A stretch of DNA of 64,000 nt. It comes from Parcubacteria group bacterium GW2011_GWA2_51_10 (GTDB lineage: Bacteria; Patescibacteriota; Minisyncoccia; Phycocordibacterales; UBA2100). Positions 1,938 through 35,844 of this stretch are shown here, one piece after another. A program made the position numbers and the translations under genes. Numbering within the stretch: the stretch's first letter is position 1; the number at the start of each line of letters is the position of its first letter. The DNA lies in NCBI GenBank assembly GCA_001004265.1, contig LCQS01000005.1:5371-69370 (forward strand), written 5' to 3'. Under the pieces are notes generated by a model. That model ran no database searches and was not told where the DNA came from. It worked only from the letters and a program-made list of their open reading frames with translations.

Positions 1938-2100
1938 AAGTTGCTGTCGGCTTATGACGATCCAGTTCTCGTTCTTCAATTACTTTTGTAAAGAAGATCA
2001 CCGCGCTCTTGATACGATATTGGGTGTGTAGGAGTATGCTAGCAAGTTGTTTCTCTCTCTGCAATACTAGTGTGAATATCTTTATATGAATTGGATGAAT

Positions 2101-2165
2101 CCCGTTAGAAATAGCCCGCCCCAAAGGCCCTTCGGGCGCGCAAGCGCGGGCGCGATTTCTAACGG
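2101..2165 (+). repeat. CCCGTTAGAAA...TTTCTAACGG hairpin element (family B, copy 1)
   Basis: Arms are cccgttagaaat (2101-2112) and atttctaacgg (2155-2165). Inner pairs are gcccgc/gcgggc, and the apex is gccc-TTC-gggc. The element ends 1 nt before the ATG at 2167. Confidence 0.65.
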
Positions 2166-2166
2166 C

Positions 2167-3117
2167 ATGAAAAAAGTTGTGACAATCGGCGGAGGAACCG
2201 GGAGCTATACCATTCTGCGCGGCCTCAAAAAATTTCCGCTCGACATTACAGCCGTTGTCACAACATTTGACAGCGGTGGCTCTACCGGCGCTTTGCGCGA
2301 TGAGTTTGGGATTCTTCCTCCCGGCGATATTCGCCGCTGTCTCATCGCGCTTTCCGAAGGAAAAAAGCGACAAGTGCTTCGCGATCTTTTTAATTACCGC
2401 TTCGACCAAAAGGGGAGCCCCCTTCACGGGCATAGCTTCGGCAACCTCTTTCTGCTCGCGCTTTCTTCGATCTACGGAAGCGAAATCGAAGGGATTCGCA
2501 AGGCATCGCAGCTTCTGAATTTGAAGGGAAGGGTGCTGCCAGTTTCGCTCGATAACTCTCACGTTCACGCGACTCTGGAGGACGGCACCGAGATCGTCGG
2601 GGAGGCGAATATCGATGTACCAAAGCACAACGGCGATTTGAAAATCGCGAGCGTTACCCTCAAACCCGTTGCACACATTTTCGATGAAACGAAAGACGCG
2701 ATTCGGGAAGCTGACCTTATTGTTATAGGCCCCGGCGACATTTACACATCCATCATTCCAAACTTTCTTGTGGAAGGGATGAAAGAAGCCCTGCGCGAGA
2801 GTCGCGGCAAAACGGTTGTCATCTGCAATCTGATGACGAAGTGGGGAGAAACAAATGGATCGGTAGCATCAAGCATGATTGCCGAACTTCTCGTTTATAG
2901 CGGCCTCTCAAAGTTCGATTATGCGATTTGCAATACCAAAGAGATGGATGCCGGACTTGTTGCCGCATATGCAGATGAAAAAAAATATCCGGTGCACTGC
3001 GATGCGGCGCTCAAGGAGTATGCGCGCGAGATCATCACGGGCGATTTCTATTCAGAATTGGACATCGCGCGGCATGATTCCGAAAAAATTGGAAAAGCTG
3101 TTGCGGAGCTGGAATAG
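2167..3117 (+). CDS. YvcK/CofD-family protein (gluconeogenesis factor-like, UPF0052)
   Basis: MKKVVTIGGGTGSYTILRGLKKF...TTFDSGGSTGALRDEFGILPPGDIRRCLIALS. I chose the start at 2167 rather than 2086 because 2086-2166 is covered by the hairpin repeat. Confidence 0.85.
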   Translation: MKKVVTIGGGTGSYTILRGLKKFPLDITAVVTTFDSGGSTGALRDEFGILPPGDIRRCLIALSEGKKRQVLRDLFNYRFDQKGSPLHGHSFGNLFLLALSSIYGSEIEGIRKASQLLNLKGRVLPVSLDNSHVHATLEDGTEIVGEANIDVPKHNGDLKIASVTLKPVAHIFDETKDAIREADLIVIGPGDIYTSIIPNFLVEGMKEALRESRGKTVVICNLMTKWGETNGSVASSMIAELLVYSGLSKFDYAICNTKEMDAGLVAAYADEKKYPVHCDAALKEYAREIITGDFYSELDIARHDSEKIGKAVAELE

Positions 3118-3641: not shown

Positions 3642-4360
3642 CCAAGGAAGAGCGTGCCCCATTGGAGAAAAGTCGCCGTAAGACGCCTCCCGTCACGGCC
3701 GCGGCGCGACGTTCTCTAACGGGGAGAGCGAGGGAGATTGTCGCGTACCTTAAAAAGGCGTATCCGAAACCGAAAAGCGAATTGAAATATCAGACGCCGT
3801 TCCAATTTCTTGTGGCTGTCATTTTATCTGCACAGTGCACTGACAAAGCGGTGAATCGTCTCACGGACACGCTTTTTGGGAAATACAAAACCGCTCTCGA
3901 TTTTGCGAGAGCCAAGTCGCGCGTTTTTGAGAAAGAAATTTCGGCGGTGCCTTTTTTCAGAAATAAATCTAAGAATATTATTGCGGCTGCGAAAAAGACG
4001 CTGGAGGAATTTGATGGGAGAGTGCCGAGAAATGCAGAGGATTTGCAGACACTTCCGGGAGTTGGATACAAGACGGCGCACGTAGTCGCGGGAGAGCTGT
4101 TCGATATATGGGAAGGAATCCCGACGGATACGCATGTGCGGCGTTTCGCTCTGCGCTTCGGTCTCACGAAACATAGTGACCTTGGTAAGATCTCTAAAGA
4201 TTTCGAAACGCTCGTGCCAAGGCGAGATTGGAAGTACGTCAATAATGGACTCGTGCTCTATGGCAGATACGTCTGTCCTGCGCGTTCGCATGACTGCACA
4301 AAGCATCCGCTTACAAAACTCTGGCCGGAGGCCGCGGCGAATTGGCCACGCGCAAAATAA
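3638..4360 (+). CDS. nth: endonuclease III (HhH-GPD DNA glycosylase), Fe-S ligands incomplete
   Basis: FQFLVAVILSAQCTDKAVN and LPGVGYKTAHVV (the HhH motif). The ATGA overlaps the upstream stop. The C-terminus VCPARSHDCTKHPLTKLW retains only 2 of the 4 cluster cysteines. Confidence 0.85.
   Translation: MTKEERAPLEKSRRKTPPVTAAARRSLTGRAREIVAYLKKAYPKPKSELKYQTPFQFLVAVILSAQCTDKAVNRLTDTLFGKYKTALDFARAKSRVFEKEISAVPFFRNKSKNIIAAAKKTLEEFDGRVPRNAEDLQTLPGVGYKTAHVVAGELFDIWEGIPTDTHVRRFALRFGLTKHSDLGKISKDFETLVPRRDWKYVNNGLVLYGRYVCPARSHDCTKHPLTKLWPEAAANWPRAK
3657..3724 (+). repeat. family B hairpin element (copy 3), inside the 5' end of nth
   Basis: ccccattggagaaaagtcgc (3657-3676) pairs with gcgacgttctctaacgggg (3706-3724). 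The termini resemble CCCGTTAGAAA/TTTCTAACGGG. Confidence 0.5.
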
Positions 4361-7572: not shown

Positions 7573-8730
7573 ATGAGAAACGTGGCAGTTATTTTTGGAG
7601 GGCGGAGCGCGGAGCATGATGTCTCCATCATTACGGCTCACATTCCGGTTATCGAAACGCTCCTTGCAGGCCGGAAATACGATGTCGTTCCGATATACAT
7701 CTCAAGAGCGGGTGTCTGGTATTCGGACTCGGCGATGAACAACCTCGAATATTTTAAAGAAGACTTTGAGCCGAAGCTGCGGAGATTAAAGCCCCTCCAA
7801 TTGTCATTTGAGAAGGGCCTCGAGATCATTGAGCCGGGTATATTCGGAAAAAAGAAGAAAATCGACATCGTATTTCCAACCATGCATGGTACGTATGGCG
7901 AAGATGGGAGTTTGCCGGGACTCTTGCGCATGGCGAACGTGCCATTTGTCGGATGCGATCTTTCCGCCTCGGCAGTTGCGATGGATAAGGCATTCACGAA
8001 GCAAATTCTTTCGGCTGAAGGGATCCTTGTCGTGCCGTTTGTTTGGTTCACCAAGAGTGAGTGGGAAGCAGATAATAAAAGGATATTAGAGCAAATTGCA
8101 CGCCTCAAATCGCCGCGATTCGTAAAACCTGTGCACCTCGGCTCCTCAATTGCGATTACGAAAGTGAAAAGTGAAGCTGAACTTGTGAATGCCATAGAAG
8201 TCGCGCTTCACTACGACGATAAGGCGCTCGTTGAGGAGAGCGTCGAGGACTTGATAGAAGTGACGTTGCCTATTATAGGAAACAATGAGCCTCGTGCGGC
8301 AGAAGTCGAGCATGCTCTCAATAAAACGGAAGTTTTTGATTTTAACGAAAAGTATCTCTCTGGAGGAAAGAAATCAGTCGGCGGAGTCAATAGGGCGTAC
8401 AGCGAGATCCCCGCGAACATTGGCGAGGAGGTGACATCCAAGGTGAAAGAGATGGGCAAGCAAGTATATCGAATTCTTGGCTGTACAGGCATTGCACGTG
8501 TAGATTTTCTGATTGACGGAAAAACGAAGAAGATTTTCGTAAATGAAGTGAATACGCTTCCCGGAAGTCTCTATCATCATAATTGGCGAAAAGCGGGCGT
8601 ATCGAACATGGAGCTCATCGAGGAATTGATTCGGCTCGCGGAAGAGAGGTTCGCCTCACAAAAAAATACGACTTTTACATTTAAGTCCGACATTCTGAAG
8701 AAAGTAGGAGGACCGAAGATCGGAGCATGA
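7573..8730 (+). CDS. ddl: D-alanine--D-alanine ligase
   Basis: MRNVAVIFGGRSAEHDVSIITA, HGTYGEDGSLPGLL and ARVDFLID...FVNEVNTLPG. Start moved from 7507 to the conserved MRNVAVIFGG. Confidence 0.9.
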   Translation: MRNVAVIFGGRSAEHDVSIITAHIPVIETLLAGRKYDVVPIYISRAGVWYSDSAMNNLEYFKEDFEPKLRRLKPLQLSFEKGLEIIEPGIFGKKKKIDIVFPTMHGTYGEDGSLPGLLRMANVPFVGCDLSASAVAMDKAFTKQILSAEGILVVPFVWFTKSEWEADNKRILEQIARLKSPRFVKPVHLGSSIAITKVKSEAELVNAIEVALHYDDKALVEESVEDLIEVTLPIIGNNEPRAAEVEHALNKTEVFDFNEKYLSGGKKSVGGVNRAYSEIPANIGEEVTSKVKEMGKQVYRILGCTGIARVDFLIDGKTKKIFVNEVNTLPGSLYHHNWRKAGVSNMELIEELIRLAEERFASQKNTTFTFKSDILKKVGGPKIGA

Positions 8731-8847
8731 CCCCGTTAGAAACCGCGGTCGCGAATACATGATCGAGTCTTAGCAAAACGGCCAACATAAAAAGCATGAC
8801 CAAAATATTAGCCAGCATCGTGCGAGCGCGACCTGTTTCTAACAGGG
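8731..8847 (+). repeat. family B hairpin element (copy 2), starting directly after the ddl stop
   Basis: ccccgttagaaaccgcggtcgcg (8731-8753) pairs with cgcgacctgtttctaacaggg (8827-8847). The first arm begins 1 nt after the TGA at 8728-8730. Confidence 0.6.
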
Positions 8848-9545
8848 TGACGAAAGCAGCAAAGCAAAGGGTGGCGGTATTTGATGTAGATGGAACGATT
8901 TTCCGCTCAAGTCTTTTGATACAGCTCGTCAATAAACTCATTGAAAAAGGTGCGATACCGAAAGACGCCGAGCTCGTGTATGATCGCGCTCACATTCGTT
9001 GGCTCGATCGCGAGGGCGATTATCAGGAATACATTGAAGCGGTTATCAAAGCATTTCGCGCACACCTCAAGGGACTGCATTACGGCGTTCTCGCGGATGC
9101 TGCGGAGGAATTAGTCGAGGAGCAGTGGAAGCGAACATATCGTTACGCTCGTGATTTGCTGAAGGATTTAAAATCGAAGGGATACTACCTTCTTGCCGTC
9201 TCGCATTCTCCCAAAACGGTTCTCGATAAATTCTGTCCGCGACTCGGATTCGACAAGGCGTATGGCATCGTCTACGAAATCGGCCCGCAGGAGTGCTTCA
9301 CGGGCGCCGTCGTAGAGGAGCATCTCATCTACAATAAGGCGAACATTCTGAAGCGCGCGATTGAAAAAGAGAATCTGACAATAAAAAATTCTGTAGGTGT
9401 CGGCGATACTGAATCGGACATTTCGTTTCTCGAAATGGTCGCGCAGCCCATCTGCTTCAATCCCAATTCAAAGCTCTACCGGTATGCTAAACGAATGGGC
9501 TGGAAGGTAGTAGTTGAAAGAAAGGACGTAGTTTATGAACTGTAA
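8796..9545 (+). CDS. HAD-IB family hydrolase (phosphoserine-phosphatase-like)
   Basis: VAVFDVDGTIFRSSL (motif I) and GVGDTESDISFLEMV (motif IV). The ATG at 8796 lies in the loop of the family B hairpin. An in-frame GTG at 8847, at the hairpin end, is an alternative start. Confidence 0.75.
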   Translation: MTKILASIVRARPVSNRVTKAAKQRVAVFDVDGTIFRSSLLIQLVNKLIEKGAIPKDAELVYDRAHIRWLDREGDYQEYIEAVIKAFRAHLKGLHYGVLADAAEELVEEQWKRTYRYARDLLKDLKSKGYYLLAVSHSPKTVLDKFCPRLGFDKAYGIVYEIGPQECFTGAVVEEHLIYNKANILKRAIEKENLTIKNSVGVGDTESDISFLEMVAQPICFNPNSKLYRYAKRMGWKVVVERKDVVYEL

Positions 9546-22915: not shown

Positions 22916-25199
22916 ATGTCCTTTAGTAACTTATTTTTCATGCGCATGACGAATCAAACGGAAAGCGTTAAGAGAGGAAGAGGGCCTGCCCTCGCACGGG
23001 CGGGAGCGGTTGTCGTTTCAGCGACTGCCGCGTTCCGCGTGTATAAAAAATATTTACCGAACATCCAGAAGCGCGACGGTCGGATCGTCCCATTCGAGTT
23101 TGAAAAGATCGGGCACGCTATTCATAAGGCGATGGTCGCGACGAATGAGGGCTCGAGTGATGAGGCGGTGGTCGTCGCGCACAAAGTGGCTGGGGAGATG
23201 ATGCGCATTGCCAAGACGTATAAGAATTTTTTGCCGACTGTCGAGGGATGCCAGGACGAAGTAGAGCGCCAACTCATCCTTTCCGACTACGCGGCGGCCG
23301 CAAAGGCGTACATTCTCTATCGCGCGGATCGCGCGAAACTTCGCAAGGAGCAGGGCGATGTTCCCGAGCACGTCCGCGCGTTGGCGCAGGAGAGCAAAAA
23401 ATACTTCAAAAATAATCCGCTCGGAGAATTTGTGTACTTGCGTACATATGCGCGGTGGATCGAGAGCGAACAGCGCCGAGAGACGTGGGTGGAAACCGTT
23501 GATCGGTACATCGGCTTTATGAAAGAAAATCTCGGAAACAAATTGAAGCCGCGCGAGTATGCGGAATTGCGCGAGGCGATACTCAAGCAGGAAGTGATGC
23601 CGAGCATGCGCGCGATGCAGTTTTCGGGAGATGCGGCTCGCAAGTGCAACACGTGTTTTTACAATTGCTCATTTACCGCGCCAGTGAAGTTGGAAGATTT
23701 TGCGGAGATCATGTATCTCTCGATGCAGGGATGTGGCGTTGGATTTGCGGTTGAGAGCCAGAATGTGCAACAGTTGCCGCAGATTCAAAAGCAAACTGGC
23801 GAAAAATTGGCGACGCACGTTGTCGCAGATTCAAAAGAGGGATGGTGTGATGCCCTCACGCTGGGTCTCAAGGCGTGGTATTCGGGGAAAGATCTAGATT
23901 TCGATTTCTCTCTCATCCGCCCGGCAGGATCGCGCTTAAAGACGATGGGAGGGAAAGCTTCTGGTCCAGAGCCGCTTCGTTCTCTTTTGGGATTTGCACG
24001 GGATCGCATTTTGAAGCGGCAGGGAAGGCGGCTGCGCAATATTGATGCTCACGACGTCATCTGCAAAATCGGAGAGTGCGTTGTTGCCGGCGGCGTGCGC
24101 CGCACGGCAATGATATCGCTTTCGGATCTGGACGATGTTGAGTTGCGGGATGCCAAAAAAGGCCAGTTTTTCCTTACGGATCCGTTTCGCTCTGTCGCGA
24201 ATAACTCGGCAGTCTACGAGACGAAGCCGACGAATGCTGAGCTTATGGACGAATGGGTCGCCCTTATGAAAAGCGGCACGGGAGAGCGCGGCATTTTCAA
24301 CCGCGGCTCGCTGGAGAAAACGCTTCCGGAGCGCCGCCTCAAATTTTTCAAAAAGAAATTCGGAAAGAAGAAAGGAAATTTCATCGGGCAGGTGGGCACT
24401 AACCCGTGCGGCGAAATTTTGCTTCAATCTCATGAATTTTGCAATTTGTCGGAGGTAATTGCTCGCGCGGAGGACACGGAAAAAACGCTCCTGCGGAAAG
24501 CGAAACTTGCGACGCTCCTCGGTACATACCAATCCACGCTAACGAAATTCAATTACATCTCGAAGGAATGGCAGGAGAACTGCGAACAAGAACGTCTCCT
24601 CGGCGTCTCCATTACGGGTCAGTGGGACTCTCCCGCTGTGCGTGATGCGAAGGTGTTGCGGAGGATGAATTCACACGCGGCACTCGCAATACTACATCCG
24701 GCGCGTCCGCATTTCGGCGACGGACTCGCTTTATAGAATGGTGCGCGACCAAGGCATCCCGACTCTACCGGAGGTGGGGCAGAATGCGAACGAGGCAAAC
24801 ACATTCGTGCTCGAGTTTCCCGTTAAAGCTCCCCAAGGATCAATTTTCAAAAACGACCTCTCTGCGATCGAGCAGCTCGAATATTGGAAAACGGTAAAAC
24901 TGAATTTCACAGAGCACAATCCCTCCGCGACGATCTCTGTCGGGGAAGAGGAGTGGGTGGCAGTCGTTGCGTGGATCTCGGAAAACTGGGATATCATCGG
25001 CGGTCTCTCGTTCCTTCCTCGCGAAAGCCACGTGTATCGCCTCGCACCGTATGAAGCCATCGATAAAAAAACATACGAGGCTCTCATGAAAAGATTCCCA
25101 CAGATAGATTACTCGAAACTCGTGATCTACGAGCGCACGGATGAGACGGAGCAGGCGAAGGAGTTGGCGTGCGCGGGCGGGACGTGCGAGATAGTTTAG
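22916..25199 (+). pseudogene. nrdJ: class II (adenosylcobalamin-dependent) ribonucleotide reductase with an ATP-cone, interrupted near 24666
   Basis: ATP-cone NIQKRDGRIVPFEFEKI, active site TNPCGEILLQSHEFCNLSEV, and C-terminal redox pair ELACAGGTCEIV. The frame changes at ~24666: frame 0 opens after the TGA at 24666-68 and encodes IHTRHSQYYIRRVRISATDSLYRMVRDQGIP. Confidence 0.85.
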
Positions 25200-30407: not shown

Positions 30408-32690
30408 ATGTCATCTAACATTCGAAACTTCAGCATTATTTCTCACATTGATCATGGTAAGAGCACGTTGGCGGATCGGATGCTCGAGCTCACGGCCACA
30501 ATCGCTCCGCGTGAGATGCATGAGCAAGTACTTGATCGGATGGAACTGGAGCGTGAACGCGGCATTACGATCAAAATGGCACCTGTGCGGATGCTGTGGC
30601 ATCCGCACCGCAGACTTACGCAGAATGAGACGCAGAAGGACGCAGAATGGATACAAGGAGACGATTTCTTATATAAAGATCTCACTTACAAAATACGCGG
30701 CATTTTTTTTGATGTACGAAAGAAATTAGGGCTGGGACATAAAGAACAGATCTATCACAATGCGCTTGAAATAGAATTCAAGAAAAATGGATTGGTTTTT
30801 GAAAGCAAAAAAAATATACCAATTCTTTACGACGGCAATAATATCGGACTATATCAGCCGGATTTTGTTGTTGAAGGCAAGGTGCTGATAGAACTTAAGG
30901 CGTTGCCAGAAATTAGCCGGCCGCAAACTGAGCAGTTATGGTCATATTTGAAAGGTTGTGAGTATAAGGTCGCTCTTTTAGTAAATTACGGCTCAAAAGA
31001 TTTGGAAATCAAGCGAATAGTCTATGATAAATCCCGCCCGAGTTCTTCTGCGTTGTCTGCGTTGTCTGCGTTAAGTCTGCGTGAGTCTGCGGGCGTGTCG
31101 AATCAGGTTGAAGAATATGTTCTAAACCTGATCGACACGCCAGGACATGTCGATTTTGCTTATGAAGTTTCCCGTGCGCTTTCTGCGGTGGAAGGCGTCG
31201 TGCTTTTAGTCGATTCGACGCAAGGAGTAGAAGCGCAGACTCTTTCCGTTCTTTCTGTCGCAAAGAATCTCGGACTTGAGATCATACCTGTTGTATCGAA
31301 AATAGACGCACCGAATGCGCGCGTCTCTGATATCGTAAGCGAGGTGGCGCTTCTTCTAAACTGTCCGGAATCGAGCATTCTGCGCGCATCGGGAAAAACA
31401 GGCGAAGGCGTAGCACACATCCTAAATACGATCGTGGAAAAAATACCGCCACCGAAATCGACAGGCGCAGGCGTTCAAGCACTGATTTTTGACTTCGGCT
31501 ACTCCGATCATCGCGGCGTCATTGTCTACGCGCGCGTCTTCGGCGGCAAAATCGCAAAAGGCGATTCGCTTCGCTTTTGCGCTGCACAGACAGATTTTCA
31601 AGCTCTCGAAGTTGGATGGCTTACGCCGCGCGAAACTCCATCGGAGGTTTTACATGAGGGCGAAATCGGATACATAGTCACCGGTATAAAAAAGGCAGGC
31701 ATTGCTTCTGTCGGCGATACGCTCACCTCGGTGCGCAATCCCTCTCACGCTCTTCCGGGCTATTCTCCGCCGGCGCCCGTCATTTGGGCAAGTGTGTATC
31801 CGGAGAGTCAGGATGATCTCGTCCTTTTGCGTCAGTCGCTCGAGCGGTTGCGTCTTTCAGATTCGTCTCTTTCTTATGAAGAAGAATCATCCGGAATAAT
31901 GGGCAAGGGTTTCCGTTGCGGATTTCTCGGCATGCTTCACCTGGAAATAATCATTGAACGCTTGCGTCGAGAATTTGCACTCAATCTCGTCGTTACGATG
32001 CCGACGACCGTATATCGAATCACACACACAAATGGGAAGGTGGAGGATATCTATTCGCCCGCACATTTCCCCGACGAGGGAACCGCAAAAAGGGTTGAGG
32101 AGCTCTGGAGCAAAGTGTCTGTAATTGCTCCGCCCGAATATTACGGAGCCATTTCGCAACTTCTCTATGATCATGAAGCGGAAATAGGAGAGACAGCCAC
32201 GCTGCCCGATGGAAAAATGCAGGTGTATGCCGACATGCCGCTCCGGGAGCTGATGCGCGGCTTTTTTGACAAGCTCAAGAGCGTTTCGTCAGGATTCGCA
32301 TCTCTCTCATATGAGCTTCTAGGATTTCGTGATGCGGATGTCGTTCGGCTTGATGTGCTCGTTGCCGATGAAATTGTTCCGGCGTTCGCCCGCATCGTAA
32401 GTCGGCGGCGAGTTCAGCATGAGTCAGAAGCAATTGTAAAAAAGCTTGAGGAATTATTGCCCCGCCAACTTTTCGTTTTAAAAATTCAAGCAAAAGCAAT
32501 GGGGCGTATTATTGCCGCGCGTCGCGTGTCGGCGCTCCGCAAGGACGTTACGGGATACCTCTATGGAGGCGACATCACGCGTAAGATGAAGCTTCTCGAG
32601 AAACAAAAACGCGGCAAGAAGAAAATGCTGGCACGCGGGAAGGTGGATATTCCACACGATGTTTTTCTTAGAGTTATTCGGGATAGTTAG
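30408..32690 (+). CDS. lepA: translation elongation factor 4 (LepA) carrying a ~160-aa in-frame insertion in the G domain
   Basis: IRNFSIISHIDHGKSTLADR, ERERGITIK, [insert], LNLIDTPGHVDFAYEVSR, FRCGFLGMLHLEIIIERL, and C-terminal YGGDITRKMKLLEKQKRGKKKM. It is 760 aa, against roughly 600 for typical LepA (recalled). Confidence 0.95.
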   Translation: MSSNIRNFSIISHIDHGKSTLADRMLELTATIAPREMHEQVLDRMELERERGITIKMAPVRMLWHPHRRLTQNETQKDAEWIQGDDFLYKDLTYKIRGIFFDVRKKLGLGHKEQIYHNALEIEFKKNGLVFESKKNIPILYDGNNIGLYQPDFVVEGKVLIELKALPEISRPQTEQLWSYLKGCEYKVALLVNYGSKDLEIKRIVYDKSRPSSSALSALSALSLRESAGVSNQVEEYVLNLIDTPGHVDFAYEVSRALSAVEGVVLLVDSTQGVEAQTLSVLSVAKNLGLEIIPVVSKIDAPNARVSDIVSEVALLLNCPESSILRASGKTGEGVAHILNTIVEKIPPPKSTGAGVQALIFDFGYSDHRGVIVYARVFGGKIAKGDSLRFCAAQTDFQALEVGWLTPRETPSEVLHEGEIGYIVTGIKKAGIASVGDTLTSVRNPSHALPGYSPPAPVIWASVYPESQDDLVLLRQSLERLRLSDSSLSYEEESSGIMGKGFRCGFLGMLHLEIIIERLRREFALNLVVTMPTTVYRITHTNGKVEDIYSPAHFPDEGTAKRVEELWSKVSVIAPPEYYGAISQLLYDHEAEIGETATLPDGKMQVYADMPLRELMRGFFDKLKSVSSGFASLSYELLGFRDADVVRLDVLVADEIVPAFARIVSRRRVQHESEAIVKKLEELLPRQLFVLKIQAKAMGRIIAARRVSALRKDVTGYLYGGDITRKMKLLEKQKRGKKKMLARGKVDIPHDVFLRVIRDS
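30608..31092 (+). mobile_element. AT-rich cassette encoding a GxxExxY-type PD-(D/E)XK nuclease fold, flanked by inverted ACGCAGA-heptamer arrays, in-frame within lepA
   Basis: 5' arm ccgcagacttacgcagaatgagacgcagaaggacgcagaa; 3' arm ttctgcgttgtctgcgttgtctgcgttaagtctgcgtgagtctgcgg. Core motifs are GHKEQIY, PDFVVEGKVLIELK and LVNYG. Hand count gives 28-37% GC inside versus 57% in flanking lepA. Confidence 0.6.
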
Positions 32691-35693: not shown

Positions 35694-35770
35694 GGCGGGT
35701 ATAGTTTAGTGGCAGAACGATTGCCCCATAGGAAATTGCTCCGCAATTCCAACGGGGTAAACTTCCTAAA
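35694..35770 (+). other. tRNA-like fragment (acceptor 5' strand and D-arm only), not a complete tRNA
   Basis: gcgggta-TAGTTTAGTGGCAGAAC shares an identical 17-nt D-arm with the adjacent tRNA-Gly. However, I could find no T-arm and no complementary acceptor 3' strand. Confidence 0.3.
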
Positions 35771-35773
35771 TGC

Positions 35774-35844
35774 GCGAGATTAGTTTAGTGGCAGAACAGA
35801 TGCTTCCCAAGCATCGGACGCGAGTTCGATTCTCGCATCTCGCA
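35774..35844 (+). tRNA. tRNA-Gly (anticodon CCC)
   Basis: gcgagat-ta-gttt-agtggca-gaac-a-gatgc-ttCCCaa-gcatc-ggac-gcgag-ttcgatt-ctcgc-atctcgc-a. Confidence 0.9.

What the first reader, a model, noticed from the sequence alone, without database searches (positions are those of the whole stretch)
2101..2165. Family B: CCCGTTAGAAA...TTTCTAACGGG hairpins at cistron junctions, readable in-frame as N-terminal extensions
- **Seen, copies:** Three hairpins share the same termini. 2101-2165 ends 1 nt before the yvcK-like ATG. 8731-8847 starts 1 nt after the ddl stop and ends at an in-frame GTG of the HAD gene. 3657-3724 starts 16 nt after the Gmad2-like stop and lies inside the 5' end of nth.
- **Seen, frames:** In all three cases the element is free of stops in the downstream gene's frame. 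ORF callers therefore extend the proteins with odd peptides (...AGAISNG-MKK; ...RARPVSNR-VTK; ...AARRSLTG-RAR).
- **Seen, interiors:** The interiors differ in sequence and length, but each again forms a hairpin. Copy 1 has a gccc-TTC-gggc apex.
- **Inference:** This is either an intercistronic processing, stability or translation-coupling element, or a palindromic selfish repeat that tolerates or exploits in-frame insertion, as Rickettsia RPEs do.
- **Practical consequence:** Start-codon calls for these three genes depend on which explanation is right.
Basis: partly seen in the sequence, partly recalled or inferred. Interest (0 to 1): 0.55.

Follow-up and report, generated by a model that had tools for sequence, protein, structure and literature searches.

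The report
Tiny mobile hairpins inserted at gene starts
The three hairpins are copies of a very small mobile palindromic DNA element, apparently undescribed, that is widespread in uncultured groundwater bacteria, lands on start and stop codons, and is often read through as extra protein sequence.

Summary
The three hairpins are real and share termini far beyond chance. The window comes from a Parcubacteria (CPR) MAG.

They belong to a large family. I collected 151 distinct copies of 27-203 nt.

- **Conserved part.** Only a sharply bounded 13-bp stem is conserved: YCCCGTTAGAANN...NNTTCTAACGGGR. Three variable positions co-vary, and pairing stops at position 13. Interiors are mostly unrelated.
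- **Target-site duplication.** A 4-bp direct repeat (T-N-N-A) flanks 88 of 151 copies; permutations give 15.
- **Empty sites.** A syntenic relative lacks the element at all three window sites.
- **Other mobility signs.** Copies are nested, and one subfamily sits at the same yvcK site in either orientation.
- **Translatability.** Lengths favour multiples of 3, and many copies are open in the frames PVR...SNG or PLE...LTG. Some lie inside conserved enzymes.

This is a MITE-like selfish element that behaves like Rickettsia RPEs. It is not a conserved processing signal.

In the window, copy 1 splits the yvcK ATG and regenerates it. Copy 3 splits the ddl/HAD ATGA overlap and creates a GTG. Copy 2 is an in-frame insertion in nth.

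No transposase was found, and no published description turned up.

The parts
2100..2167 (.). Copy 1: 66-nt core (2101-2166) plus the terminal T2100/A2167 pair. Arms are 2101-2112 and 2155-2166.
   Evidence: The interior is 91% identical to L057 11205-11270 and 86% identical, in inverted orientation, to L011 9935-10000.
2096..2099 (+). Left copy of the 4-bp target-site duplication TGAA. Together with A2095 it forms the ancestral yvcK start ATG (2095-2097).
   Evidence: Read. L011, L009 and L012 place the native ATG here relative to a -10-like box.
2168..2171 (+). Right copy of TGAA. The element's terminal A2167 plus T2168-G2169 regenerates an ATG in front of MKKVVTIGGG.
   Evidence: YvcK orthologues are 314-320 aa and start MKKVV.
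3657..3724 (.). Copy 2: a decayed copy (arms 3658-3669 and 3712-3723) inside the nth coding region, read as APLEKSRRKTPPVTAAARRSLTG.
   Evidence: Relatives show the N-terminus M..EERK.RA[KR].IVAYLKK without this segment. There is no in-frame start codon between the element and the conserved residues.
8731..8847 (.). Copy 3: 115-nt core (8732-8846) plus the terminal C8731/G8847 pair. Arms are 8732-8743 and 8835-8846.
8727..8731 (+). Former ddl-stop/HAD-start overlap ATGA(C). The ddl TGA is at 8728-8730. The orphaned HAD ATG at 8727 now opens an 11-codon ORF that ends at TGA 8760-8762. This is the left copy of the TSD TGAC, with a 1-nt ambiguity in the C run.
   Evidence: The empty site in L004 has the intact ATGA overlap. 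HAD relatives start 4-7 residues before VAVFDVDGT.
8847..8851 (+). GTG start (8847-8849) created by the element's terminal G plus the TG of the right TSD copy TGAC (8848-8851).
   Evidence: The same GTG-creating junction is seen in L012, L003 and many metagenome copies.
8796..8798 (+). In-frame ATG inside copy 3. ORF callers use it as the HAD start (249-aa call).
35725..35756 (.). Doubtful fourth copy: a degenerate 32-nt hairpin CCCATAGGAAATT..CAATTCCAACGGG followed by GTAAAC.
   Evidence: At this stringency shuffles give about 1 hit, so this may be chance.

Best explanation
**What it is.** The three hairpins are insertions of a miniature, non-autonomous, palindromic mobile element. It is MITE-like in anatomy and RPE-like in behaviour.

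**Anatomy.**
- The only conserved part is a 13-bp terminal stem: Y-CCCGTTAGAA-NN ... NN-TTCTAACGGG-R.
- The loop is variable, 3 to about 180 nt.

**Insertion.**
- The element integrates at T-N-N-A sites and duplicates 4 bp. Common duplications are TAAA, TGAA and TCAA.
- Such sites are rich in stop codons (TAA, TGA) and in (A/G)TGA start contexts.
- Selection removes insertions that break genes.
- Surviving copies therefore pile up at cistron junctions, or lie in frame inside genes.

**Why genes survive.**
- The element's last base (A or G) plus the duplicated TG rebuilds an ATG or GTG on its 3' side.
- Two of its three reading frames are open through both arms: PVR..SNG and PLE..LTG.
- Lengths that are multiples of 3 keep genes in frame.

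**In this window.**
- Copy 1 split the yvcK ATG. It left two in-frame ATGs 72 nt apart.
- Copy 3 split the ddl/HAD ATGA overlap. HAD was left with a new GTG or an internal ATG.
- Copy 2 is a 23-24-codon in-frame insertion near the nth N-terminus.

**Shown versus inferred.**
- Shown: family membership, duplications, empty sites, frame statistics.
- Inferred: cut-and-paste or copy-in by an unidentified transposase, and which start codons are actually used.
For: **Family size and spread**
- Paired arms occur in distant Parcubacteria genomes: Kaiserbacteria, Sungiibacteriota, Yanofskybacteria.
- They occur in 9 IMG/VR stretches.
- In total 151 distinct copies were collected.

**Target-site duplication**
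- An exact 4-mer repeat flanks 88 of 151 copies. The permutation mean is 15.4 and the maximum 27.
- The two variable central positions are identical in 76% and 74% of copies, against about 30% in the control.

**Stem**
- Watson-Crick pairing is 145/151 at the outer pair, 141/151 at position 11 and 128/151 at position 12.
- It falls to 31/151 at position 13.

**Empty sites and independent insertions**
- The syntenic relative L004 lacks the element at all three sites.
- Most yvcK relatives lack it.
- Independent insertions hit the yvcK ATG in L009, L011, P0072, P0115, P0085 and P0032. A solo-arm remnant is left in L003/P0013.

**Mobility**
- Nested copies carry their own duplications: L058 GTTTTAC, L060 ACTCGT.
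- The copy 1 subfamily is 91% identical in a genome whose YvcK is only 49% identical. It is inverted in L011 at the same site.

**Translatability**
- Length mod 3 is 84/35/32 per copy and 61/27/26 per cluster, p = 3e-5.
- Open frames are in excess: 64/80 against a null of 51.8.
- 18 copies lie inside long ORFs.
- A formate-dehydrogenase alpha-subunit-like protein, whose nearest named relative is a Thermodesulfobacteriota MAG, carries two VNPVRN..SNGV modules. Close orthologues have one, both or neither.
Against: - No autonomous copy or transposase with these ends was found. I checked 2.2 Mb of fetched loci and the window's larger ORFs (at least 230 aa).
- Interiors are mostly unrelated: 114-121 clusters among about 151 copies. 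This is unusual for a MITE family.
- Covariation in the stem, and elements as short as 27 nt, fit poorly with a transposase that binds two separate double-stranded ends.
- Copy 2 has no TNNA duplication. It is flanked instead by an 8-bp repeat, AGAGCG(T/A)G, 76 nt apart. This is unexplained.
- Only 3 (perhaps 4) copies lie in the 64-kb window, and all sure ones are within 7 kb. Genome-wide copy number in this organism is unknown.
- In L066 the arms flank a complete tRNA-Ser gene without a duplication.
Confidence: 0.8

Rival explanations
1. The hairpins are functional RNA elements kept by selection at cistron junctions. They would act as processing or stability stems (RNase III type) or as translation-coupling devices.
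For: - The hairpins are stable.
- They sit next to start codons.
- The stem co-varies at three positions.
- One copy encloses a tRNA like a processing stem.
- One minimal copy looks like an intrinsic terminator (L036).
Against: - Orthologous junctions are empty in L004 and in most relatives.
- Variable 4-bp direct repeats flank the copies.
- Copies lie inside coding regions in frame.
- The interior is inverted at the same site in L011.
- Copies are nested.
- No Rfam family matches in the window except tRNAs.
Confidence: 0.06
2. The element is mobile, but as a folded single-stranded hairpin. The enzyme would be structure-specific: a HUH/Y1 type as for REP-RAYT or IS200/IS605, or a tyrosine recombinase as for attC. 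It would not be a DDE transposase acting on two double-stranded ends.
For: - The stem is sharply 13 bp, with compensatory changes and an enforced mismatch at position 13.
- Elements of 27-31 nt are too short to synapse as duplex DNA.
- Interiors are irrelevant.
Against: - The known hairpin-dependent systems do not make variable target-site duplications. This rests on my knowledge of IS200/IS605, REP and attC.
- No GTAG/GGAG guide tetranucleotide is present. The order of GTT and AAC in the arms is the reverse of attC.
- No Y1 transposase or integrase gene was seen in the window.
Confidence: 0.12
3. The copies in this window have been domesticated. After insertion they now serve the host, for example by supplying the working start codon, tuning translation of yvcK, nth and HAD through the hairpin, or adding a useful N-terminal peptide.
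For: - Copy 3 supplies the only start codons left for HAD, GTG 8847 or ATG 8796.
- Copy 2 must be translated for Nth to keep its conserved N-terminal helix.
- Two other samples carry identical copies.
Against: - Nothing distinguishes this from neutral tolerance.
- Peptides differ completely between copies.
- Orthologues work without them.
- Decay is visible in copy 2 and in the L003 remnant.
Confidence: 0.1
4. The similarity is chance or ordinary coding sequence, and there is no repeat family.
For: Only three copies lie in 64 kb, and copy 2 is degenerate.
Against: - 0 of 100 shuffles reach the observed count.
- More than 150 further copies exist elsewhere.
- Orthologues lack the peptides.
Confidence: 0.01

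Closest known systems
Rickettsia palindromic elements (RPEs)
   Same: Both are palindromic selfish repeats found inside protein-coding genes, in frame and compatible with the host ORF. In both, presence or absence differs between orthologues (review PMC10969869; here).
   Different: - RPEs are about 100-150 bp families with a conserved encoded peptide and are confined to Rickettsia.
- Here only a 13-bp stem is conserved, the interior is free, and sizes go down to 27 nt.
- Here a clear 4-bp duplication is present.
- Hosts here are CPR Parcubacteria and at least one contig whose nearest named relative is a Thermodesulfobacteriota MAG.
- No sequence relationship to RPEs was tested.
Bacterial MITEs in general (e.g. 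Correia, ERIC, RUP, Chunjie)
   Same: Both are small, have terminal inverted repeats and flanking target-site duplications, lack a transposase gene, are dispersed, and can insert in operons without destroying them.
   Different: - Typical MITE families are conserved along their whole length and have a recognisable parent IS.
- Here the interior is unrelated between most copies.
- Here the inverted repeat is exactly 12-13 bp, with co-varying positions.
- No parent IS was found.
piggyBac / IS1380 superfamily ends
   Same: Both make a 4-bp duplication of a T..A tetranucleotide: piggyBac uses TTAA, with variants TAAA and TCAA. In both the inverted repeats start with CCC. IS1380 is the prokaryotic relative (PMC10813416). 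From memory, the piggyBac end CCCTAGAAAG resembles CCCGTTAGAAA.
   Different: - TTAA itself is rare here (2 of 88); TAAA, TGAA and TCAA dominate.
- No IS1380 or piggyBac-type transposase was found next to such ends.
- This resemblance is a lead, not a test.
REP / REPIN elements mobilised by RAYT
   Same: Both are short hairpins with a protein-sized stem, abundant, often at gene ends. Minimal copies here (27-31 nt) look REP-like.
   Different: - REPs carry a 5' GTAG/GGAG, make no target duplication, and are extragenic.
- None of these features holds here.

Membership tests
MITE (miniature inverted-repeat transposable element) | Short element with no transposase gene | tested here: met
   Copies are 27-203 nt. 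The window copies are 66, 66 and 115 nt.
MITE (miniature inverted-repeat transposable element) | Terminal inverted repeats | tested here: met
   The repeat is 12 nt plus one outer pair. 101 of 151 copies have a perfect arm of exactly 12 nt.
MITE (miniature inverted-repeat transposable element) | Target-site duplication flanking each copy | tested here: met
   For the family, 88 of 151 copies have an exact 4-mer repeat, against 15.4 expected. Copy 1 has TGAA. Copy 3 has TGAC with a 1-nt ambiguity. Copy 2 has none in the family register.
MITE (miniature inverted-repeat transposable element) | Many dispersed copies within one genome | tested here: inconclusive
   There are 3-4 copies in this 64-kb window. 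Other contigs carry 2-4 copies within a few kb: L063, L092, L156, L163. No whole genome could be scanned.
MITE (miniature inverted-repeat transposable element) | Cognate autonomous IS with the same ends | tested here: inconclusive
   None was found in 2.2 Mb of loci, nor among the window ORFs of at least 230 aa that were annotated. Those loci were not chosen to contain one.
Rickettsia palindromic elements | Palindromic repeat inserted in frame in protein-coding genes | tested here: met
   Copies 1 and 2 are in frame. 18 copies lie inside long ORFs. FDH-like orthologues carry 0, 1 or 2 modules.
Rickettsia palindromic elements | Membership of RPE-1 to RPE-10 sequence families with a conserved peptide, in Rickettsia | not tested
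   No RPE sequences were compared. The hosts are unrelated and the interior here is not conserved. I treat the element as an analogue, not a member.
REP/REPIN-RAYT | Conserved GTAG/GGAG 5' of an imperfect palindrome; extragenic; no target duplication | tested here: not met
   Arms start YCCCG. Flanks are T-N-N-A direct repeats, and intragenic copies are common.
Integron attC site | RYYYAAC at the 5' end and GTTRRRY at the 3' end, at the 3' end of mobile cassettes beside an integrase | tested here: not met
   Here GTTAGAA is 5' and TTCTAAC is 3', the reverse order. The flanking genes are syntenic housekeeping genes.
Intercistronic RNA processing hairpin (RNase III type) | Position conserved in orthologous operons, with an orientation-specific sequence | tested here: not met
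   Junctions are empty in L004 and in most relatives. The interior is inverted in L011.
Intercistronic RNA processing hairpin (RNase III type) | Cleavage of the transcript at the stem in vivo | not testable with these tools
   This needs RNA end-mapping from metatranscriptomes or heterologous expression.
piggyBac / IS1380-derived element | 4-bp T..A duplication and inverted repeats starting with CCC | tested here: met
   The duplication is TNNA and the ends are (C/T)CCCG. The piggyBac features come from PMC10813416. TTAA itself is only 2 of 88.
piggyBac / IS1380-derived element | DDE transposase of that superfamily bounded by the same ends | not testable with these tools
   No collection scan allows 1-2 kb gaps, and none was seen in the held loci.

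The most novel reading that the evidence does not exclude
This is an undescribed superfamily of ultra-compact hairpin transposons found in both CPR bacteria and a contig related to Thermodesulfobacteriota.
- Its only conserved feature is a 13-bp co-varying stem closed by a mismatch.
- It would be moved by a still unknown enzyme that recognises the folded stem rather than two separate ends, yet makes a 4-bp duplication.
- It would be a major, overlooked source of N-terminal extensions, new start codons and internal peptide loops in streamlined CPR genomes and other groundwater bacteria.
Probability: 0.3. Interest if true: 0.75.

Novelty: new variant of a known kind. Interest (0 to 1): 0.58.

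Why it matters
**Annotation**
- Hundreds of gene starts and protein lengths in CPR genomes and other uncultured bacteria are probably mis-called because of these elements. Examples are the 343-aa YvcK, 240-aa Nth and 249-aa HAD here.
- Peptides of the form xPVR...SNGx or PLE...LTG are a simple flag for them.

**Biology**
- Even very small, streamlined genomes tolerate a mobile element. It survives by landing on start and stop codons and by being translatable.
- This parallels Rickettsia RPEs, in unrelated hosts.

**Mechanism**
- The sharply bounded, co-varying 13-bp stem, the free interior and the 4-bp duplication do not fit neatly into any described prokaryotic transposition system.
- The mobilising enzyme is therefore worth finding.

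Tried and rejected
- **Integron attC.** GTTAGAA and TTCTAAC resemble the core sites, but their order is reversed and the flanking genes are syntenic housekeeping genes.
- **DNA uptake sequence.** The arm resembles the Neisseria GCCGTCTGAA from memory. However, the motif occurs only as paired arms, at about 1 per 10 kb, and with duplications.
- **Anti-Shine-Dalgarno or 16S-tail pairing.** I considered pairing of the UUAGAAA arm. It has no support.
- **TTG 3634 as ancestral nth start.** I first read copy 2 as a 76-nt frame-shifting insertion with an 8-bp duplication. N-termini of relatives (M..EER..RAR.IVAYL) fit ATG 3638 with an in-frame insertion better. The 8-bp repeat remains unexplained.
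- **6-bp or 2-bp duplication models.** The outer positions belong to the element, because they co-vary as a pair. Non-consensus T and A positions are co-duplicated more often than expected. I therefore keep 4 bp.
- **Search for an autonomous copy.** I looked for arm pairs 250-5000 nt apart, solo arms, and a recurrent neighbouring protein family. I found only pairs of separate small copies and ABC transporters.
- **Rfam at gathering thresholds.** Only tRNAs matched.
- **Literature.** Searches for both 10-mers and for MITE/CPR terms found no description. The Chunjie paper was not held.

Full report
**Observation**

The window is from Parcubacteria group bacterium GW2011_GWA2_51_10: P0001 is 100% identical to the YvcK-like protein. 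All three hairpins are present.

- Copy 1 has arms CCCGTTAGAAAT (2101-2112) and ATTTCTAACGGC (2155-2166). It abuts the ATG at 2167.
- Copy 2 has a decayed left arm CCCATTGGAGAA (3658-3669) and an intact right arm TTCTCTAACGGG (3712-3723). It lies inside the 5' end of nth.
- Copy 3 has arms at 8732-8743 and 8835-8846. It sits between the ddl TGA (8728-8730) and a GTG at 8847.

The 11-mer with at most one mismatch occurs 6 times, against 1.1 expected, and no shuffle reaches 6. All three copies fold as hairpins, but the interior of copy 2 is not better than shuffles.

One stated detail is wrong. Copy 3 has a TGA at 8760-8762 in the HAD frame, so only its 3' part is open. Public gene calls do carry the extensions, at 343, 240 and 249 aa.

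**Empty and filled sites in relatives**

L004 is a syntenic relative with 72% YvcK identity. It has the same gene order (yvcK, Gmad2, nth, hydrolase, Mur ligase, ddl, HAD) and no element at any of the three sites.
- yvcK has a plain ATG.
- nth starts as MQADRARRIVTYL.
- ddl and HAD share an intact ATGA overlap.

L003 is a closer relative (79%).
- In front of yvcK it has only a solo right arm: ATGAAAA-CTTCTAACGGG-ATGAAAAAAG.
- At the nth start it has a different full copy.

Most of 30 YvcK loci have nothing upstream of the ATG. They share a -10-like TATAGAGT/TATACAGT box 10-16 nt before it. By position, this identifies ATG 2095, not 2167, as the ancestral start in the window.

**The family**

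A YvcK-anchored scan of species-representative genomes gave 1.3 Mb of mostly Parcubacteria sequence. Paired arms occur there in Kaiserbacteria, Sungiibacteriota, Yanofskybacteria and unnamed MAGs.
- L011 has the copy 1 subfamily at exactly the same yvcK site, but with the interior inverted.
- L057, whose YvcK is only 49% identical, has a copy 91% identical to copy 1, with compensatory changes in the stem.
- L058 and L060 contain nested copies with their own flanking repeats.

An exact-arm pattern found 9 stretches in IMG/VR. Together these give 151 distinct copies of 27-203 nt.

**Anatomy**

- *Outer pair.* The base just outside CCCG/CGGG co-varies: C..G in 109 copies, T..A in 29, A..T in 5. 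It therefore belongs to the element.
- *Duplication.* The next four bases are a direct repeat with consensus T-N-N-A.
  - They match exactly in 88 of 151 copies. The permutation mean is 15.4 and the maximum 27.
  - The commonest repeats are TAAA/TTTA, TGAA/TTCA and TCAA/TTGA.
- *Stem.* Inside the arms, positions 11 and 12 vary but stay complementary, at 141 and 128 of 151.
  - At position 13 pairing falls to 31 of 151, below the 45.8 expected.
  - The stem is thus sharply 13 bp.
- *Interiors.* These fall into 114-121 clusters, so they are mostly unrelated.
- *Polarity.* In the largest subfamily (93 nt, 15 copies) the polarity of the duplication is the same in all 15.

**Relation to coding sequence**

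The arms have a stop in one frame (TAG/TAA). They read PVR..SNG or PLE..LTG in the other two.
- Lengths favour multiples of three: 84/35/32 per copy and 61/27/26 per cluster, p = 3e-5.
- Elements whose length is a multiple of three are open more often than versions with shuffled interiors, 64/80 against 51.8.
- Eighteen copies lie inside long ORFs, 32 open into a downstream gene and 19 extend an upstream gene.

Other YvcK orthologues carry the same kind of extension.
- P0072 begins MNPVRNSPPQRPKGRASAGAISNG. This is the copy 1 subfamily, at a different site.
- P0115 and P0085 carry related extensions.
- P0032 has two right-arm remnants.
- P0013 has a solo right arm.

A formate-dehydrogenase alpha-subunit-like protein on L185 gives a case outside the CPR.
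- It carries two VNPVRN..SNGV modules where solved homologues have about 59 fewer residues.
- Its closest named relative is a Thermodesulfobacteriota MAG.
- Orthologues at 76-83% identity have both modules, one or none.

The family therefore extends beyond the CPR.

**What happened in the window**

- *Copy 1.* The target was A|TGAA|AAAAG at the yvcK start, and 72 nt were added.
  - The left TGAA (2096-2099) keeps the old ATG at 2095.
  - The element's terminal A2167 plus TG rebuilds an ATG.
  - Both starts are in frame, and the element is stop-free.
- *Copy 3.* The target was the ATGA(C) overlap between ddl and HAD.
  - ddl keeps its TGA.
  - The old HAD ATG at 8727 now opens an 11-codon ORF.
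  - HAD is left with GTG 8847, made from the element's terminal G plus TG, or with the internal ATG 8796.
- *Copy 2.* Relatives show the nth N-terminus M..EERK.RA[KR].IVAYLKK. The window reads MTKEER-[APLE...SLTG]-RAREIVAYL.
  - ATG 3638 is therefore most likely ancestral, and the element is an in-frame insertion that must be translated.
  - Its duplication is not recognisable. An 8-bp repeat 76 nt apart is unexplained.

**Mechanism**

*Shown:*
- variable flanking duplications;
- empty sites in a syntenic relative;
- nested copies;
- both orientations at one site;
- near-identical copies in distant hosts.

These are the marks of transposition, not of a conserved signal.

*Inferred:*
- The target preference T-N-N-A, often in the context R-TNNA-Y, coincides with TAA and TGA stops and with (A/G)TGA starts.
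- With purifying selection, this explains the position at cistron junctions.
- The terminal A or G explains start-codon regeneration.

*Unknown:* the enzyme.
- The CCC-starting ends and the 4-bp T..A duplication recall piggyBac/IS1380 (PMC10813416).
- No transposase was found.
- The co-varying, sharply bounded stem and the 27-nt copies suggest that the folded form may matter.

**Known relatives and novelty**

Functionally the closest analogue is the Rickettsia palindromic element (PMC10969869). Structurally the element is a MITE-like family with atypical features. The REP/RAYT, attC and RNase III-site models each fail a defining feature. Full-text searches for either 10-mer, and for MITE plus CPR terms, found no description. 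I rate it a new variant of a known kind, of moderate interest.

Noticed in passing
Variable outer inverted repeats of up to 26 nt flank it. One copy follows the GroEL stop directly, and one lies about 150 nt before a tRNA-Gly.
   Followed up: partly
window 30408-32690 (+): The LepA/EF4 gene carries a complete PD-(D/E)XK nuclease domain (PDDEXK_3, E = 1e-30) at residues 90-204, inside the GTPase domain. This looks like a nuclease insertion in an essential translation factor.
   Followed up: no
window 35694-35756: A sequence resembling the 5' half of the neighbouring tRNA-Gly (GCGGGTATAGTTTAGTGGCAGAAC...) is followed by a degenerate 32-nt hairpin of the Family B type. The real tRNA-Gly lies at 35774-35844. 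ARAGORN does not call the upstream sequence.
   Followed up: partly
L066 1611-1722: The same 13-bp arms directly flank a complete tRNA-Ser(CGA) gene and extend its acceptor stem. No 4-bp duplication is present. This does not fit the simple insertion model.
   Followed up: partly
L036 13518-13558: A minimal version of the stem (AAAAACCGTTAGAAC-AAA-CTTCTAACGGTTTTTC) has A/T instead of C/G outside and is followed by a T run. It looks like an intrinsic terminator.
   Followed up: no
window 22916-24736 (+): The ribonucleotide reductase-like ORF shows only the ATP-cone, a short RNR_Alpha stretch and an insertion domain. No gene with exactly this product is on record. The gene may be split or interrupted.
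   Followed up: no
L087 3783-3873 (also L085, L086, L090, L091): In a set of near-identical IMG/VR contigs, a 91-nt copy contains a Shine-Dalgarno-like GGGAGG and an ATG. An ORF starts from that ATG and runs out through the right arm, so the element supplies the start of a small membrane-like protein.
   Followed up: no
93-nt subfamily, 15 loci (e.g. L104, L114, L144, L160, L173): When oriented by their interior, all 15 copies have the duplication in the same polarity (TTNA). Either the two ends are not equivalent for the machinery, or selection fixes orientation relative to transcription.
   Followed up: partly
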